From: Candidatus Hodarchaeota archaeon
GTDB lineage: Archaea > Asgardarchaeota > Lokiarchaeia > Sigyniarchaeales > SOKP01
Direction of reading: 5' to 3'
DNA length: 64,000 nucleotides
NCBI GenBank assembly: GCA_048886685.1
Contig: JBHLKM010000006.1
Location: 96,001-160,000 of the forward strand
Shown: one piece after another, positions 1,289 to 7,523 of the stretch
How the letters are laid out: every line of letters starts with the position of its first letter
Numbering within the stretch: the stretch's first letter is position 1
Notes under the pieces: model-generated
Database searches by the model: none
The model's input: only the letters and a program-made list of their open reading frames with translations
Told to the model about the DNA's origin: nothing
Position numbers and translations under genes: made by a program

Positions 1289-2806
1289 ATGTCAAATATA
1301 TTTCAGAAGTTAGAAAATATCGTTTCAAAAAGGAACATTTCAAATAGTTTAATTGTTCGACATGCATATTCTAGAAATGTTGACCCTGTATTACAGGGTG
1401 TTCCAGATATTGTAATTAGACCTAAAGATGCTCAAGAAATTTCCGAAATTCTTAAGATCGCTAATGAACAGAATATTCCAGTTACCCCTCGCGGAGGTGG
1501 AGATTGTGAATTTGGAGGAAGTAAACCAATCGGGGACGGTGGAATAGTTCTTGATATAAAACGGATGAATAACATTATAAATTTAGATCAGGAAAATCTC
1601 ATAGTTACAGTAGAAGCAGGGATATCATGGGGAAAGTTAAATGAATATTTATGCCATTATGGGCTTTATACTGGTTGTATGGGACCTGGATCTGGAATGA
1701 CGGCTTCTGTCGGTGGTGGTATTTCGCATCATTCCGTTGGTGGTGGTGGATGTGCTAAATATGGAGCATGTACAAACCAGTTAGTATCACTAGAAGTAGT
1801 TTTGCCCACCGGGAAAATTATTGAGACCGGTTCTCAAGCAAATAAATTCTCAAAGTATCCTTTTAACCGATTCGGGAATGGACCTGATTTAGCAGGTCTG
1901 TTTTGTGGGGATAACGGAATTATGGGAATAAAAACTACAATTTCATTGCAAGTATTTCCAAAACCTCCTTTTGCGAATTACAAAACTTTTCAATTACCTC
2001 GAAAAGAAATGGAAGCCGCAACCCAAATCTTTACAGAAATAAGGAAAAAAGGCATTGATGTTTACGATGCTATGCATATTCTCAATTCTCTTATTATTCC
2101 TTACTCTCTATTGGAAATGTATCCACTGTGGGAAAGTTTAAAAAGCAAAAGAGGGATTTTTTTCTACACAGTTGAAGCAAATTCAGAAACAGAATTAGAT
2201 GAAAAAGTAAAACAATTAGATAATATAATATTAAATAAGAAATGTGAAGAGTTAGGTCCTGAAATCTCAGATGGAAATTATGCTAAATGGCATTATGCTG
2301 AACAAGGACATTGGCAATTATATCATAATTTATGGAGTCCCCTTCCTTCCCTAACTCCATTGACAGCTGAATGTTTTACTCCTATTAACTCTTACCCTAG
2401 GATTTTACAAGAAATTGAACAATGGGATTTGGAACACAATGAAGATATGCAAAAAATTACAGACATAACAGGTCAGCGACCAGGGTCAGGAAGTGGACCG
2501 ATTTTATTAATAGATGGATGTAATGTTGAATTAACATGTGGGTTAATTAGTTTCGGAAATTATTACGATGGTGAAATACATGAAGAATTTGAAGAAATTA
2601 ATCTGAGACTATGGAGAACTCTTTTAGAGACAATAATAAAACAAGGGGCACAATATTATATGATGGGCGATTTTAATTCACGCGTTATGGTTGAGATGGG
2701 TGCCTATCCCGTTGAATTCTATAATCTTATGAAGTCAATTAAAAAAATTCTTGATCCAAAGTGTATTTTAAGTCGAGGAAAATATAATCTCTGGGGAGGT
2801 GACTAA
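1289..2806 (+). CDS. FAD-binding oxidoreductase, GlcD/D-lactate dehydrogenase family
   Basis: PDIVIRP, PRGGG, EAGISW, GDNGIMGI and terminal LDPKCIL motifs. Confidence 0.88.
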   Translation: MSNIFQKLENIVSKRNISNSLIVRHAYSRNVDPVLQGVPDIVIRPKDAQEISEILKIANEQNIPVTPRGGGDCEFGGSKPIGDGGIVLDIKRMNNIINLDQENLIVTVEAGISWGKLNEYLCHYGLYTGCMGPGSGMTASVGGGISHHSVGGGGCAKYGACTNQLVSLEVVLPTGKIIETGSQANKFSKYPFNRFGNGPDLAGLFCGDNGIMGIKTTISLQVFPKPPFANYKTFQLPRKEMEAATQIFTEIRKKGIDVYDAMHILNSLIIPYSLLEMYPLWESLKSKRGIFFYTVEANSETELDEKVKQLDNIILNKKCEELGPEISDGNYAKWHYAEQGHWQLYHNLWSPLPSLTPLTAECFTPINSYPRILQEIEQWDLEHNEDMQKITDITGQRPGSGSGPILLIDGCNVELTCGLISFGNYYDGEIHEEFEEINLRLWRTLLETIIKQGAQYYMMGDFNSRVMVEMGAYPVEFYNLMKSIKKILDPKCILSRGKYNLWGGD

Positions 2807-4073
2807 TATTAACAAATTAGAAAATTTAAGGAAAGAATGGCAAGCCATATTCTCTTGTATAATTCTCTAGATCTACTAGAAAATGCAAAAGGGGTGTGGC
2901 GATTGTGGGTATGCTATTAGACCTGCTGTTGGACGATATTTAACATGTCCTATAAAGGAAGCTAAAGAGGAGGAAGGTTTTGAGATATATTTCTCACGTG
3001 GTAGAATGAACGTTCTTAAGAGCGTTTTAGAGGGGAAACTGCCATTAAGCAGAGAATTAGCAGAATTTGCATATCAATGCATGGAATGTGCTAATTGTAC
3101 TGAAGTATGTCATGAAACTCATAATGAGAATATTGTTCTTAACACTTCAAAATGGATTGACCATGTTAAAGTGTGGGAAGCCTTAAGGAAAGATTTGGTA
3201 GAAGCCGGATTCGCACCTTTAGATAAGCATAGAAATATAGTTAATTCTATGGTTAGTGATTCGATGAGAAATCCTTATGGTGAGGATAAAGAAGATAAAT
3301 TTAGTTGGGCAAATGAATTTCCAGAGATTCGGGAGAAAGGAGATCTTGCCTTTTTTGGAGGATGTACAATTCCACTAAGACAAAAAAATACTCTTAAGAG
3401 CATGATGAAAATTTTCAAAACCACTGGAATCAATTTTGCCATATCTAAGGATGAATGGTGCTGTGGATCCATAGGATTACGTATTGGTGATGAAATGGCT
3501 TTAACTGATATAATCAAACATAATGTTGAAGTTTTTAAGAATATAGGAGCAAAAGCATTATTTACAAGTTGTGCTGGATGCTATAGAACATTGAAAAAGG
3601 ATTATCCTGAATTCTTGGAGGAAGAGTTGCCATTTGAAGTAAAACACATAACAGAAATATTAATTGAGCTTCTTAATAGTAATCAAATTCCATTTAAACC
3701 AGAGGAGGGTAAGAAATTAAAAGTAACTTACCATGATCCTTGCCATCTGGGGCGTCATATGGATTTATATGAAATCCCAAGAGATGTTGTAGCGAAAATC
3801 CCTGGAATAGAATTAATAGAAATGAAAAGAAATCGAAAGCATGCTTGGTGTTGTGGAGCCGGAGGTGGTGTAAAAAGTCAATATCCTGAATTAGCTCTTG
3901 AAATCTCAAAGGAGAGAATTAAAGAAGCAATTGAAGCGGGAGCAAATATACTAACTACTAGCTGTCCTTTCTGTCTTGGTAATCTAAATGATGCGTATAA
4001 TGAAATGGGCGCAGAAATCCAAGAAAAAATAAAATTAGTTGACATTATTAACTTAATTGCATCAAAAATATAA
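2799..4073 (+). CDS. Fe-S oxidoreductase (GlcF/HdrD-like, CCG domains), interrupted by a 30-nt candidate intron; exons about 2799-2860 and 2891-4073, about 414 aa spliced
   Basis: Upstream in-frame segment (V/M)TNINKLENLRKEWQAIFSC overlaps the glcD-like stop; spliced product has CMGCGDC...CP, then CMECANCTEVC, WCCG, YHDPCHLGR, CCGAGGG. Start is GTG 2799 or ATT 2808 (after GGAGGTGA). Confidence 0.8.
2861..2890 (+). other. Candidate bulge-helix-bulge mRNA intron (30 nt)
   Basis: Central helix UUGU(2855-58)/GCAA(2885-88); 3-nt bulges AUA(2859-61) and AAG(2889-91); inner helix AUUCUCUAG/CUAGAAAAU (8 of 9 paired); outer helices CUC/GGG and GCCAUA/UGUGGC; contains two in-frame UAG. Confidence 0.8.
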
Positions 4074-4304: not shown

Positions 4305-5210
4305 ATGACAACAAACAAAATTTCTTTAATTGGTAAACCAGCGGTTGGTAAAACTACTATTAAAAAAGTTATTTTTGAAGGAGAAGATCCAAATGATTTA
4401 ATTCTATTTCCACTTGAGGCAACGTTAAAAGTTCAGTACTCCATACATGATTTTATGGATTCTAAAGTTAGTCTAGTTGATGCACCTGGTCAATCATTGC
4501 AAGTAATTTTTGAAGATGAACAAAAACAATTAATGGTGTTTGGAGATACTAAGGCAATTATTTATATTTTGGACTATCCAACTTGGATATCAAACTCTCA
4601 AGATATTCTTGATGATGTCAGAAAACTTTATGAAATTAGCAAAAAAAATGATTTTGATGCCAAAATAATACTGTTTCTTCATAAAATTGATGTATTAATT
4701 AATAAAAAAATCGGTAGTATGCTAGCCTTAATAAGAAGACAGATAAATAACCAATTAAATCTGCCTGTGGAGATTCCAATTTATTTTACAAGTTTACATC
4801 CGAATTTAATATATACTACATATAATGCGATTTCTGAAACTTTGAGTAATTTTTCAGCAGAGGCTTCTAACTTAAAGAATATTGTCAAGAAAAAAATTAA
4901 GGGTTTATCTAAAACAAGTTGCTTTGTTTCTAATAAAGACGATAATTTAATTATTCAAGAAATGTCAAATGATTTTGATACTAGTATTCTGTATTATTTA
5001 TTTGAAAAGATTTATCATTTAAGCAAATCAACTGAATTTTCAACCACAAAAACCAGAATAATAAGTCCTGGTTCAAAAATTTTAAATATGGTAATAGAAG
5101 ATATAAGCAACTATAACTCTAATTTTAAATATCTGATTTTATTATCTGAAACCATAGAACAAGAAGATATGATGAAGATATTAGACGATTTAAAGAATGA
5201 ATTGAATTAA
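4305..5210 (+). CDS. Gtr1/RagA-like small GTPase with C-terminal roadblock-like region
   Basis: GKPAVGKTTIKKVIFE, LEAT, DAPGQ, Rag-type HKID (G4) and FTSL (G5). Confidence 0.8.
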   Translation: MTTNKISLIGKPAVGKTTIKKVIFEGEDPNDLILFPLEATLKVQYSIHDFMDSKVSLVDAPGQSLQVIFEDEQKQLMVFGDTKAIIYILDYPTWISNSQDILDDVRKLYEISKKNDFDAKIILFLHKIDVLINKKIGSMLALIRRQINNQLNLPVEIPIYFTSLHPNLIYTTYNAISETLSNFSAEASNLKNIVKKKIKGLSKTSCFVSNKDDNLIIQEMSNDFDTSILYYLFEKIYHLSKSTEFSTTKTRIISPGSKILNMVIEDISNYNSNFKYLILLSETIEQEDMMKILDDLKNELN

Positions 5211-5245
5211 TATTTTTAACTAAAATTAAGTGCAATATTTTCAAT

Positions 5246-6298
5246 ATGCTACGACAAGTCTTTATAGTTTTAAACGATAAAATTTGTTATCAGAGGAGTT
5301 ATGCTAAAGGTTTAGATATTTCACTTTTTACAAAGGTTTTTCAAAAAATCAAGAAAGTAGCCTTTTCGAAATTTGGAAGTGAAACAGGAATATATGAGTT
5401 TTTTGAGTATAAGCTTTCATATATAGTTGATGAAGATCTAAACTTTGTTTTACTTTTTGTATCAGGATTAGGTGATAACTTTGAAGATATCGAACCACAA
5501 CTAAAAAATTTCAAAAACGAATTTATTAATTTCTATGGTGATGACCTAAGTAATGAGAACTTTGAAATCGTAAGTGAAGTTTTAGATCCAATCGTTGATA
5601 ATATTCATAGAAATTTAAAACCGAAAATTTCAATTGTAGGATTTTCTGGAGTGGGCAAAACCACAACAACCAAATTGATAAAATCAGAAGAAATTCCTAT
5701 GCAGCATATCCCAACAATTACTGGTGAGGTTGCTACTATTAAGATAGGCAAACTCCACTTCTTTTTATGGGATTTCGCTGGACAAGACCAATTTGACTTT
5801 CTATGGGAGAAATTTATAAGAGGAAGTGATGCTGTTCTTTTGATGACCGATTCAACATTAGAAAATCTTGATAAGAGTAGATATTTCTTTGATTTGGTTA
5901 ATAAAATAGTTCCTTATGCACGTCTCGCTGTAATCGCAAATAAGCAAGACTTACCCGACGCAATGAAAGTTGAAGATATAGAGAGATTATTGGGAAATAA
6001 AACATACTCAATGGTAGCAATAGATCCAAATAATCGATCTAAAATGATACGGATCATTGCAGATCTGTTAGATATGGATGCAGGAGTATCTCCTTTATTA
6101 CAACCTATATTTGAAAGAGATATGTTAATGGATAAAGCACAAAAAGCATTAGAAGAAGGACGATTCGAGGAAGCTGTTTCTCTTTTTGAGAAGATCAGTA
6201 GTTTTTGTCTTGAATTAGGAGATGATTCTCTTGCTATTGACTTTCAAAATAAAAGCGACAAAATTAATAGTTTATTAAAATCTCTTACTAACCAATAA
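5246..6298 (+). CDS. Longin-like domain + Arf-like small GTPase + C-terminal helical repeat (paralog 1)
   Basis: GFSGVGKTT, IPTITGE, WDFAGQ, NKQDL; N-terminal ~125 aa resembles longin/sigma-adaptin fold. Confidence 0.8.
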   Translation: MLRQVFIVLNDKICYQRSYAKGLDISLFTKVFQKIKKVAFSKFGSETGIYEFFEYKLSYIVDEDLNFVLLFVSGLGDNFEDIEPQLKNFKNEFINFYGDDLSNENFEIVSEVLDPIVDNIHRNLKPKISIVGFSGVGKTTTTKLIKSEEIPMQHIPTITGEVATIKIGKLHFFLWDFAGQDQFDFLWEKFIRGSDAVLLMTDSTLENLDKSRYFFDLVNKIVPYARLAVIANKQDLPDAMKVEDIERLLGNKTYSMVAIDPNNRSKMIRIIADLLDMDAGVSPLLQPIFERDMLMDKAQKALEEGRFEEAVSLFEKISSFCLELGDDSLAIDFQNKSDKINSLLKSLTNQ

Positions 6299-6321
6299 AA
6301 TCTATTTTCAATATACCTTAA

Positions 6322-6433
6322 TTTACCACGTCCTTGTTATATTCTGCAAAAAACTAATACTTAAATTGGCTATAATTTAGCCAAGGAGGATATGAATAAG
6401 ATATTAGATGAAGTAAAGGATGATTTAAATTGA
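6322..6433. pseudogene. Duplication scar made of 3' remnants of the PAS/GAF gene (minus) and the Rag GTPase gene (plus)
   Basis: 6322-6362 matches 7553-7594 (encodes ..LQNITRTW*); 6386-6433 encodes EDMNKILDEVKDDLN* versus EDMMKILDDLKNELN* at the end of the 4305-5210 ORF. Confidence 0.85.
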
Positions 6434-6473
6434 TGAATTTATACGTAAATAATAGATTGATAAGATTCTTAAG

Positions 6474-7523
6474 ATGTTGCGCCAAATATTTATAATTTTA
6501 AATGATCAATTAATATATCAAAGGGATTATGCTAAAGGATTAGATAAATCACTTTTTACAAATGTATGTCAAATAGTTAAAAACACTGAGCATTCAAAGT
6601 TTGGAACAGAGCCAAGTATATACGAGTTTTTTAAGTATAAAGTCTCATATATTGTTGATGAGAATTCTGGTTTAATTATACTTTTTGTATCTGGATTAAT
6701 TGACGATCCTAAACGGATTAAACCCCAACTGATAAAATTTAAAGAAGAATTTTTAGAATACTATGGTGATAGCCTTAAAAACGAAGATTTTAAAATAATT
6801 AATGAAGTTTTAGACCCGATTGTTGATAAGATTCACAGTAACCTTAAACCTAAAATTTCTATCGTTGGGTTTTCTGGGGTCGGGAAAACTACTGCTACAA
6901 GATTAATAAAATCAGAGGAAATCCCAATGCAACACATCCCTACAATAACAGGTGAGGTTGCTACTATTAAGATAGGCAAACTCCACTTCTTTTTATGGGA
7001 TTTCGCTGGACAAGATGAGTTCGATTTTTTATGGGAAAAGTTCATAATGGGAAGTGATTCGGTGCTCTTAATGACCGATTCCACCTTGGAAAACCTAGAA
7101 AAAAGCAAATTTTTTATCGAATTAGTTTATAAAGCAGTTCCTAATGCTCGATTCGCAGTGATCGCTAACAAGCAAGATTTACCAGGCGCGATGAAAGTTG
7201 AGGACATAGAAAAATTAATGGGCAAAAAAACATATGGTTTTGTTGCAATAGATCCTGATAATCGTCCAAAAATGATACGTATTATAGCAGATTTATTAGA
7301 GATGGATGCAAACGTATCACCACTATTAAAACCCTTACTTGAAAGAGAAAATTTAATGGATAAAGCACAGAAGGCTTTAGAAAAGGGAAATTTTGAAGAA
7401 GCTGTTATACTTTTTGAAAAGATTAGTAATATATGTCTTGAATTAGGAGATGACTCACTCGCTATTGATTTCCAAAGCAAAAGTGAAAAAATAAGTACTA
7501 TGTTAAATTCCATTATTAGCTAA
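6474..7523 (+). CDS. Longin-like domain + Arf-like small GTPase (paralog 2)
   Basis: Colinear with and highly similar to 5246-6298; same G motifs. Confidence 0.8.
   Translation: MLRQIFIILNDQLIYQRDYAKGLDKSLFTNVCQIVKNTEHSKFGTEPSIYEFFKYKVSYIVDENSGLIILFVSGLIDDPKRIKPQLIKFKEEFLEYYGDSLKNEDFKIINEVLDPIVDKIHSNLKPKISIVGFSGVGKTTATRLIKSEEIPMQHIPTITGEVATIKIGKLHFFLWDFAGQDEFDFLWEKFIMGSDSVLLMTDSTLENLEKSKFFIELVYKAVPNARFAVIANKQDLPGAMKVEDIEKLMGKKTYGFVAIDPDNRPKMIRIIADLLEMDANVSPLLKPLLERENLMDKAQKALEKGNFEEAVILFEKISNICLELGDDSLAIDFQSKSEKISTMLNSIIS

What the first reader, a model, noticed from the sequence alone, without database searches (positions are those of the whole stretch)
2844..2900. Candidate BHB (tRNA-endonuclease-type) intron inside a protein-coding gene
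Seen: the GlcF/HdrD-like frame starts at the upstream gene's stop and reads ...WQAIFSC-[I I L * I Y * K M Q K]-GCGDC, so 30 extra nt with two UAGs split a CxxCxxC motif. The RNA folds as GCCAUA/UGUGGC, CUC/GGG, 3-nt bulge AAG, 4-bp helix UUGU/GCAA, 3-nt bulge AUA, inner helix AUUCUCUAG/CUAGAAAAU. Established: archaeal EndA cuts after the second nucleotide of each bulge. Applying that rule (AU|A, AA|G) removes exactly 2861-2890 and gives UGU-AUG-GGG-UGU-GGC-GAU-UGU = CMGCGDC, in frame and stop-free. The structure and the protein motif independently give the same 30-nt excision. The archaeal mRNA introns I know of are mainly crenarchaeal cbf5. Inference: an Asgard metabolic gene needs splicing, which suggests an overlooked class of small mRNA introns that make genes look truncated.
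Basis: partly seen in the sequence, partly recalled or inferred. Interest (0 to 1): 0.95.

Follow-up and report, generated by a model that had tools for sequence, protein, structure and literature searches.

The report
tRNA-type intron in Asgard oxidoreductase gene
A metabolic iron-sulphur protein gene of an Asgard archaeon is interrupted by a 30-base insert shaped like the introns archaea cut out of tRNAs, and comparison with dozens of related genomes indicates it is a real mRNA intron, something the papers I could search confirm inside an archaeal coding sequence only for cbf5.

Summary
Confirmed. Window 2861-2890 is a 30-nt bulge-helix-bulge (BHB) insert in a GlcF/HdrD-like (CCG-domain) gene of a Promethearchaeota (Lokiarchaeia-type) genome. 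Of 13 possible 30-nt deletions, only this one forms the 4-bp helix and gives CMGCGDC, the reading of most intronless orthologs (a minority have N or S after the Met). Among 85 distinct orthologous junctions (biased sample), 52 lack an insert and 33 carry one at this exact site. All 33 break the frame if kept. Their sequences diverge (56% identity) but keep the pairing (92% of cells; 49 compensated versus 15 shuffled). Carrier genes stay under purifying selection (dN/dS 0.05-0.12; 18/18 cysteines). EndA (two subunits) and RtcB are present. New here: 11 relatives carry twin introns, the second set in the first's 3' cut site, implying ordered removal. Intron sequence and presence do not follow the gene tree. 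An alignment without motif search found five more such inserts in this genome. Caveats: no RNA evidence was obtainable; the BHB is not the predicted lowest-energy fold; the start codon is probably ATT 2808. The scan has noted similar introns before in other Asgard and DPANN genomes.

The parts
1289..2806 (+). Upstream FAD-linked oxidase (GlcD-like, FAD_binding_4), 505 aa; probable partner subunit in the same operon
2795..2802 (+). Shine-Dalgarno-like GGAGGTGA inside the end of the oxidase gene
   Evidence: sequence; similar GGGGTGA before the start in orthologs
2808..2860 (+). Exon 1: probable ATT start (alternative GTG 2799), encodes ...WQAIFSC plus AT of the Met codon; supplies the first Cys of the first Fe-S motif
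2844..2854 (+). Exonic outer helix, 5' strands (GCCAUA 2844-49, CUC 2852-54)
   Evidence: Ser codon is TCN in 26/26 carriers versus 23/42 intronless genes
2855..2861 (+). Central-helix 5' strand UUGU (exon) and 5' bulge AU|A; predicted cut between 2860 and 2861
2861..2890 (+). 30-nt BHB intron: A + 9-bp stem (2862-70/2876-84) + 5-nt loop + central-helix strand GCAA (2885-88) + AA; two in-frame UAG; no coding capacity
   Evidence: recovered at offset 0 by an alignment without motif search
2889..2900 (+). 3' bulge AA|G (predicted cut between 2890 and 2891) and exonic outer helix 3' strands
2891..4073 (+). Exon 2: rest of a GlcF/HdrD-like protein (N-terminal Cys motifs plus two CCG domains); spliced product 411 aa from ATT

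Best explanation
The 30 bases are an archaeal BHB intron in an mRNA. The transcript folds so that four exon bases pair with four intron bases between two 3-nt bulges. The cell's two-subunit tRNA splicing endonuclease (EndA) cuts after the second base of each bulge, RtcB joins the exons, and the intron is released, probably as a small circle. This rebuilds the Met codon and the CxxCxxC motif of the Fe-S subunit of a flavin/Fe-S dehydrogenase. Shown here: the insert, its register, conservation of the pairing, selection on carrier genes, and presence of the enzymes. Inferred: cutting and joining in the cell. The intron is most likely a tolerated passenger that is gained, lost and replaced at a fixed, splice-competent site inside a motif that cannot tolerate imprecise deletion. 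How it reaches DNA is unresolved.
For: 33 of 33 inserts at this site (29-34 nt single, 56-61 nt twin) cause a stop or frameshift if kept, and all begin with A. Boundaries were set by protein alignment, yet the central helix pairs in 87/88 cells. Over the whole structure 92% of cells pair, with 49 double-sided changes versus 15 in shuffles; slid controls pair 38-49%. Singles are only 56% alike. Of 23 carriers examined, 22 have a complete exon 2 of 392-399 codons (one runs off its contig), with 18/18 Cys and dN/dS 0.05-0.12 against this gene where dS could be estimated. The exon Ser codon is restricted to TCN in carriers (26/26 versus 23/42; kin are not independent). In twins the second unit pairs with the first unit's helix strand, with covariation, not with the exon; this has a purpose only if RNA is cut. 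Two EndA paralogs, one with the Tyr-His-Lys context, and an intact RtcB are present. Precedent: cbf5 introns of 16-44 nt (PMC2738675).
Against: No direct RNA evidence. The canonical BHB is 6 kcal/mol above the predicted minimum, and its outer register is not favoured by the energy model. In this genome the homologous start codon is ATT rather than ATG, so this copy could be weakly translated or recently inactivated. Several central-helix positions are also fixed by the Cys and Gly codons, so part of the conservation is not independent.
Confidence: 0.9

Rival explanations
1. The insert is not removed. Translation restarts at ATG 2883 (MQKG...) and makes a protein lacking the first 19 residues and one cysteine.
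For: An in-frame ATG exists in this genome's insert and gives a 396-aa ORF. The upstream start is an unusual ATT.
Against: 12 of 23 carriers have no in-frame ATG/GTG/TTG between the last stop and GCGDC. No Shine-Dalgarno precedes 2883. Exon 1 and its Cys are conserved in all carriers. This reading does not explain the compensatory pairing.
Confidence: 0.03
2. The insert is an inactivating hairpin (a mobile-element footprint) and the gene is a pseudogene.
For: The genome has over 20 paralogs of this family, so loss might be tolerated. One relative (G094) holds a dead, truncated second copy, and its oxidase has a nonsense codon.
Against: 22 carriers spread over the tree have no other lesion, all 18 Cys and dN/dS about 0.1 at near-saturated synonymous distance. 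There is no target-site duplication and no other copy of the insert in the genome.
Confidence: 0.03
3. The insert is skipped by another route: ribosomal bypassing over the hairpin, or excision at the DNA level.
For: A hairpin with stop codons inside a gene is also the layout of translational bypassing (own knowledge).
Against: There are no matching take-off and landing codons; the join falls inside a codon (AT|G). Skipped lengths vary (29, 30, 31, 34, 56-61) yet always follow the EndA cut rule. The conserved pairing is exon-intron with two 3-nt bulges.
Confidence: 0.03
4. Assembly or sequencing artefact.
For: The genome is metagenome-assembled (8% contamination estimate); raw reads were not available.
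Against: Different inserts occur at the same base in 32 other independent assemblies.
Confidence: 0.005

Closest known systems
BHB intron of cbf5 pre-mRNA in Crenarchaeota (Watanabe 2002; Yoshinari 2006; Yokobori 2009, PMC2738675)
   Same: Short (16-44 nt there, 29-34 nt here) non-coding insert inside a codon of a conserved motif; BHB at the borders; cut after the second bulge base; hetero-oligomeric EndA; patchy gain and loss.
   Different: Different gene (metabolic Fe-S oxidoreductase, not an RNA-modifying enzyme) and phylum (Promethearchaeota). Much faster turnover (at least 11 forced changes within one family). Twin introns at one site. Apparently one of many mRNA introns in the genome. 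Splicing was shown for cbf5 and is not shown here.
Asgard tRNA introns (Valentin-Alvarado 2024, PMC11291895; Goswami 2026, bioRxiv 10.64898/2026.10.13.758758)
   Same: Same motif, size class and enzyme; repeated gains at the same positions; arrival route unknown. This genome's own tRNAs carry many small introns.
   Different: Those papers treat tRNA genes; the preprint does not mention mRNA, and its intron-rich families are Jordiarchaeia and Atabeyarchaeia. Here the host is a protein-coding gene.
Multiple-intron pre-tRNAs of Thermoproteales (Sugahara 2007/2008; Tocchini-Valentini 2009, as cited in PMC6379350 and PMC4090602)
   Same: One intron's motif is available only after another is removed (ordered removal from own knowledge; the original paper was not held).
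   Different: Here the twin arrangement is in an mRNA, and in relatives rather than in this window.
BHB intron in the 5' UTR of Haloferax HVO_1309 (PMC7714728)
   Same: EndA substrate in an mRNA, excised as a circle.
   Different: Untranslated there; here it interrupts the reading frame.
Homing-endonuclease BHB introns of archaeal rRNA and their short deletion derivatives (discussed in PMC2738675)
   Same: Intron alleles at a fixed site that do not follow host phylogeny.
   Different: No ORF-bearing version was found at this site among 85 junctions, and no nuclease gene lies next to it.

Membership tests
Archaeal BHB (EndA-type) intron | 4-bp central helix between two 3-nt bulges on opposite strands, flanked by helices | tested here: met
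   (87/88 central cells paired); not the predicted MFE in this genome
Archaeal BHB (EndA-type) intron | Cut after the second base of each bulge gives the mature sequence | tested here: met
   The excision equals the intronless ortholog reading; unique among 13 registers
Archaeal BHB (EndA-type) intron | Structure, not sequence, is conserved | tested here: met
   56% mean identity; 49 double-sided changes versus 15 shuffled; slid controls fail
Archaeal BHB (EndA-type) intron | Host encodes EndA and an RNA ligase | tested here: met
   Two PF01974 proteins (200 and 209 aa frames; one with Tyr-His-Lys context, one lacking the His) and intact RtcB
Archaeal BHB (EndA-type) intron | Excision and ligation observed in RNA or in vitro | not testable with these tools
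   No RNA run was listed; no assay possible
mRNA intron of the cbf5 kind | Lies in a coding sequence that is under selection and needs the excision | tested here: met
   33/33 disruptive if kept; dN/dS 0.05-0.12; 18/18 Cys; downstream start not conserved
mRNA intron of the cbf5 kind | Same gene and site as cbf5 | tested here: not met
   CCG-domain oxidoreductase; an independent site
Homing-endonuclease intron | Intron-encoded or adjacent homing endonuclease | tested here: not met
   Longest insert at the site is 61 nt; the genome's LAGLIDADG hits lie on other contigs
Group I / group II self-splicing intron | Ribozyme core of hundreds of bases | tested here: not met
   30 nt; no Rfam match
GlcF / HdrD named equivalogs | Score above the curated NCBIfam cut-off | tested here: not met
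   Pfam CCG x2 passes; TfrB, GlcF, GlpC and HdrB models all score below cut-off. GlcF/HdrD-like, substrate unknown.

The most novel reading that the evidence does not exclude
In this Lokiarchaeial family, EndA/RtcB splicing of ordinary mRNAs is routine (tens of genes per genome), and the mini-introns are mobile without encoding any protein. Intron alleles move between lineages into a fixed site and can land exactly in the 3' cut of an existing intron, creating twin introns with an obligatory order of removal. This would be a protein-spliced, spreading intron class in coding genes of the prokaryotes closest to eukaryotes.
Probability: 0.5. Interest if true: 0.92.

Novelty: new variant of a known kind. 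Interest (0 to 1): 0.8.

Why it matters
In the papers I could search, cbf5 is the only confirmed case of splicing inside an archaeal coding sequence. If these inserts are spliced, Asgard genomes hold an unannotated class of mRNA introns, which makes genes look truncated or absent and distorts metabolic reconstructions. It would also show that the archaeal relatives of eukaryotes tolerate introns in ordinary genes using the endonuclease/RtcB route, the chemistry related to XBP1/HAC1 splicing (own knowledge). This site has closely related genes with no intron, one intron or twin introns (for example L041 versus L009, end branches 0.02 each). That makes the open question of how BHB introns are gained and lost testable on a single locus.

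Tried and rejected
RNA evidence: no RNA holder was listed, so no reads could be laid; this is no evidence either way. An exact spliced-or-unspliced junction pattern found nothing in metagenome contigs, and the intron found nothing in viral contigs. Genome-wide BHB scans from sequence alone, using coding-frame models and energy or pairing scores, did not separate candidates from controls; the first version missed this intron, and the mirror control is not independent because true hairpins pass it too. I rejected these as a census and used pairwise alignment to a 1.2-Mb sample of relative G005 instead. A long, endonuclease-bearing allele at this site was sought by fetching 32 further regions. 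None was found; the one candidate (G094) was a truncated duplicate. No reverse transcriptase (PF00078) was detected in the genome (the assembly may be incomplete). A 16-nt match to the intron's 5' end on contig C33 lies antisense in an intact gene with no second arm and was rejected as chance. Tandem duplication as the origin of twins is not favoured but not excluded: unit 1 versus unit 2 identity is 0.47-0.67, similar to unrelated singles. Co-conversion of flanking exon sequence among twins was not seen. Rfam and promoter scans were uninformative.

Full report
Setting. The window is contig C6:96001-160000 of a 4.4-Mb genome with 31% G+C. Orthologs 69-77% identical come from records titled mostly Promethearchaeota / Promethearchaeia, that is Lokiarchaeia-type Asgard archaea. 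The gene follows a FAD-linked oxidase (GlcD-like) and encodes N-terminal cysteine motifs plus two CCG domains. No named NCBIfam model passes its cut-off, so it is GlcF/HdrD-like with unknown substrate.

Observation. Removing 2861-2890 yields one stop-free frame. Of 13 registers for a 30-nt deletion, only this one has a full central helix and gives CMGC. A motif this good occurs at 6 per million positions of the genome. A pairwise alignment to an intronless relative, using no motif, places the gap at exactly these coordinates. Two refinements: the drawn BHB is 6 kcal/mol above the ViennaRNA minimum, which slides the outer helix by one base; and the likely start is ATT 2808, at the orthologs' start position and 5 nt after a Shine-Dalgarno sequence. 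Another ortholog uses CTG at that position.

Orthologs. Protein and DNA searches of relatives, genome contigs and metagenomes gave 85 distinct junctions: 52 without an insert, 22 with one of 29-34 nt, and 11 with 56-61 nt. The sample is biased by the searches and is not a frequency. I fixed the boundaries from the protein (Cys codon plus AT on the left, four bases before CGDC on the right), so the structure was not used to place them. All 33 inserts begin with A and destroy the frame if kept; lengths of 29, 31 and 34 shift it. All give SC-M-G/N-CGDC when removed.

Covariation. On 21 single introns, 92% of cells pair (central helix 98.8%), with 49 double-sided changes against 15 in shuffles; partners slid by 1-3 columns pair 38-49%. 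Relatedness inflates the shuffle test, but the introns are only 56% alike and synonymous sites are near saturation. The first central pair varies between an exon base and an intron base (UA, UG, CG, GU, GC). The exon Ser codon whose C pairs across the junction is TCN in 26/26 carriers and 23/42 intronless genes.

Selection. Of 23 carriers examined, 22 have a complete second exon (one runs off its contig), all 18 cysteines and a conserved first exon. dN/dS against this gene is 0.05-0.12 where dS could be estimated, the same as for intronless orthologs. In 12 of 23 carriers no in-frame start codon lies in the insert, so restart at MQKG is not the family's solution. The genome encodes two EndA paralogs, one with the catalytic Tyr-His-Lys context and one lacking the His (consistent with the two-subunit type), and an intact RtcB.

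Twin introns (new here). The long inserts parse as two abutting units: 29+31, 29+30, 30+31, 30+26 and 30+27 nt (L138 parsed by eye). The second unit sits in the AA| cut of the first. Its central-helix strand pairs with the first unit's helix strand and covaries with it (GCGG with CUGC or CCGC, GCAG with CUGC). It fails to pair with the exon. That helix is 3-7 kcal/mol more stable than the competing exon helix. Inference: unit 2 must leave first, which restores a normal BHB for unit 1; the reverse order would strand unit 2. In the 26-27 nt units the second helix often has one mismatch (relaxed motif). Earlier scan notes describe this layout in Asgard tRNAs; here it is in an mRNA.

History. On a 70-protein tree, presence of the intron needs 17 changes, 11 forced by well-supported branches, with close plus/minus pairs such as L041/L009 and L008/L011. 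Twins are scattered (4 forced changes against singles). Their first units are 85% alike although their synonymous sites are 53% alike, and close gene pairs such as L054/L138 or L040/L143 carry introns only about 50% alike. This favours lateral replacement or repeated gain of intron alleles at a fixed site. Strong constraint on an ancestral twin with repeated loss, and recombination of short gene segments, are not excluded. No endonuclease-bearing allele, adjacent nuclease or reverse transcriptase was found. The most economical route to twins is ligation of an intron RNA into an EndA cut followed by copying into DNA; this is conjecture.

Not a lone case. Aligning 861 kb of a 1.2-Mb sample of relative G005 to this genome gave 14 frame-disrupting coding inserts and 30 harmless in-frame ones. 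None of the 30 scored as a BHB. Among the disruptive ones, six in this genome (this one; a thioredoxin at WCGPC; an acetoacetate-CoA ligase at WMMWNW; uvrB; a CO dehydrogenase/acetyl-CoA synthase alpha-like gene; a DnaG-like primase) and two in G005 (uL11 and a small Cys-rich protein) are 28-37 nt, start with A, have BHB-like borders and split conserved motifs. Gene names are my reading of the motifs. Most of these have relaxed motifs and were not tested for covariation. A rough extrapolation is some tens per genome, not counting introns shared with G005. Two of them match unchecked first-stage notes on this genome.

Literature. Confirmed archaeal mRNA substrates of EndA in the searched library are cbf5 (PMC2738675, which says introns in other protein genes were predicted but unconfirmed) and a Haloferax 5' UTR (PMC7714728, which calls cbf5 the only other example as of 2020). 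Asgard tRNA introns are described (PMC11291895; bioRxiv 10.64898/2026.10.13.758758) without mRNA introns. Ten searches found no paper on BHB introns in Asgard coding genes; most subscription papers are not searched. The scan itself has noted similar introns in other Asgard, DPANN and virus-like sequences; these notes are leads, not support.

Verdict. The feature is real and very probably a spliced BHB mRNA intron (0.9). It works like the cbf5 intron and meets every feature of the class that can be tested from genomes; splicing in the cell remains unshown. It is a new variant of a known kind: a new lineage and gene class, rapid turnover, and twin introns with ordered removal. Interest 0.8.

Noticed in passing
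L004:916-975, L053, L130, L138, L143, L153, L204-L211: Twin abutting BHB introns at the same site in relatives; the second pairs with the first, implying ordered splicing of an mRNA.
   Followed up: yes
G000 C1:~288862 (-), C40:3422 (+), C3:215409 (+), C18:88213, C1:28179 (-): Five more BHB-like inserts of 29-37 nt splitting conserved motifs of thioredoxin, acetoacetate-CoA ligase, uvrB, a CODH/ACS alpha-like gene and a DnaG-like primase.
   Followed up: partly
G005 C1:~1129378, ~337484, ~1121956: BHB-like inserts of 28, 30 and 29 nt in uL11, a small Cys-rich protein and a third short coding region of the relative, absent from this genome at those sites.
   Followed up: no
L203 (G094 C23:126000-144000) / L178: Three oxidase copies in a row. 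The second is followed by exon 1 and a twin-type intron that breaks off 20 nt into unit 2, with exon 2 lost; the main copy carries a different single intron. The first oxidase has a nonsense codon at a conserved Trp.
   Followed up: partly
window 2808-2810: Probable ATT start codon where orthologs have ATG/GTG/TTG; one ortholog (L020) has CTG.
   Followed up: partly
G000 C16:73459-74364: A free-standing LAGLIDADG-like frame (336 aa) lies right after intron-bearing tRNA genes, one with a perfect 30-nt BHB intron in the T arm that G005 lacks.
   Followed up: no
window 4305-7523: Three small GTPase genes in a row: one Gtr1/RagA-like and two near-duplicate 349-350 aa GTPases with an N-terminal extension, followed by a PAS/GAF-like protein on the other strand.
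   Followed up: no
G000 whole genome: ARAGORN finds only 35 tRNA genes, some with odd anticodons or 77-nt introns, suggesting missed multi-intron tRNAs; a tRNA-Sec is present.
   Followed up: no
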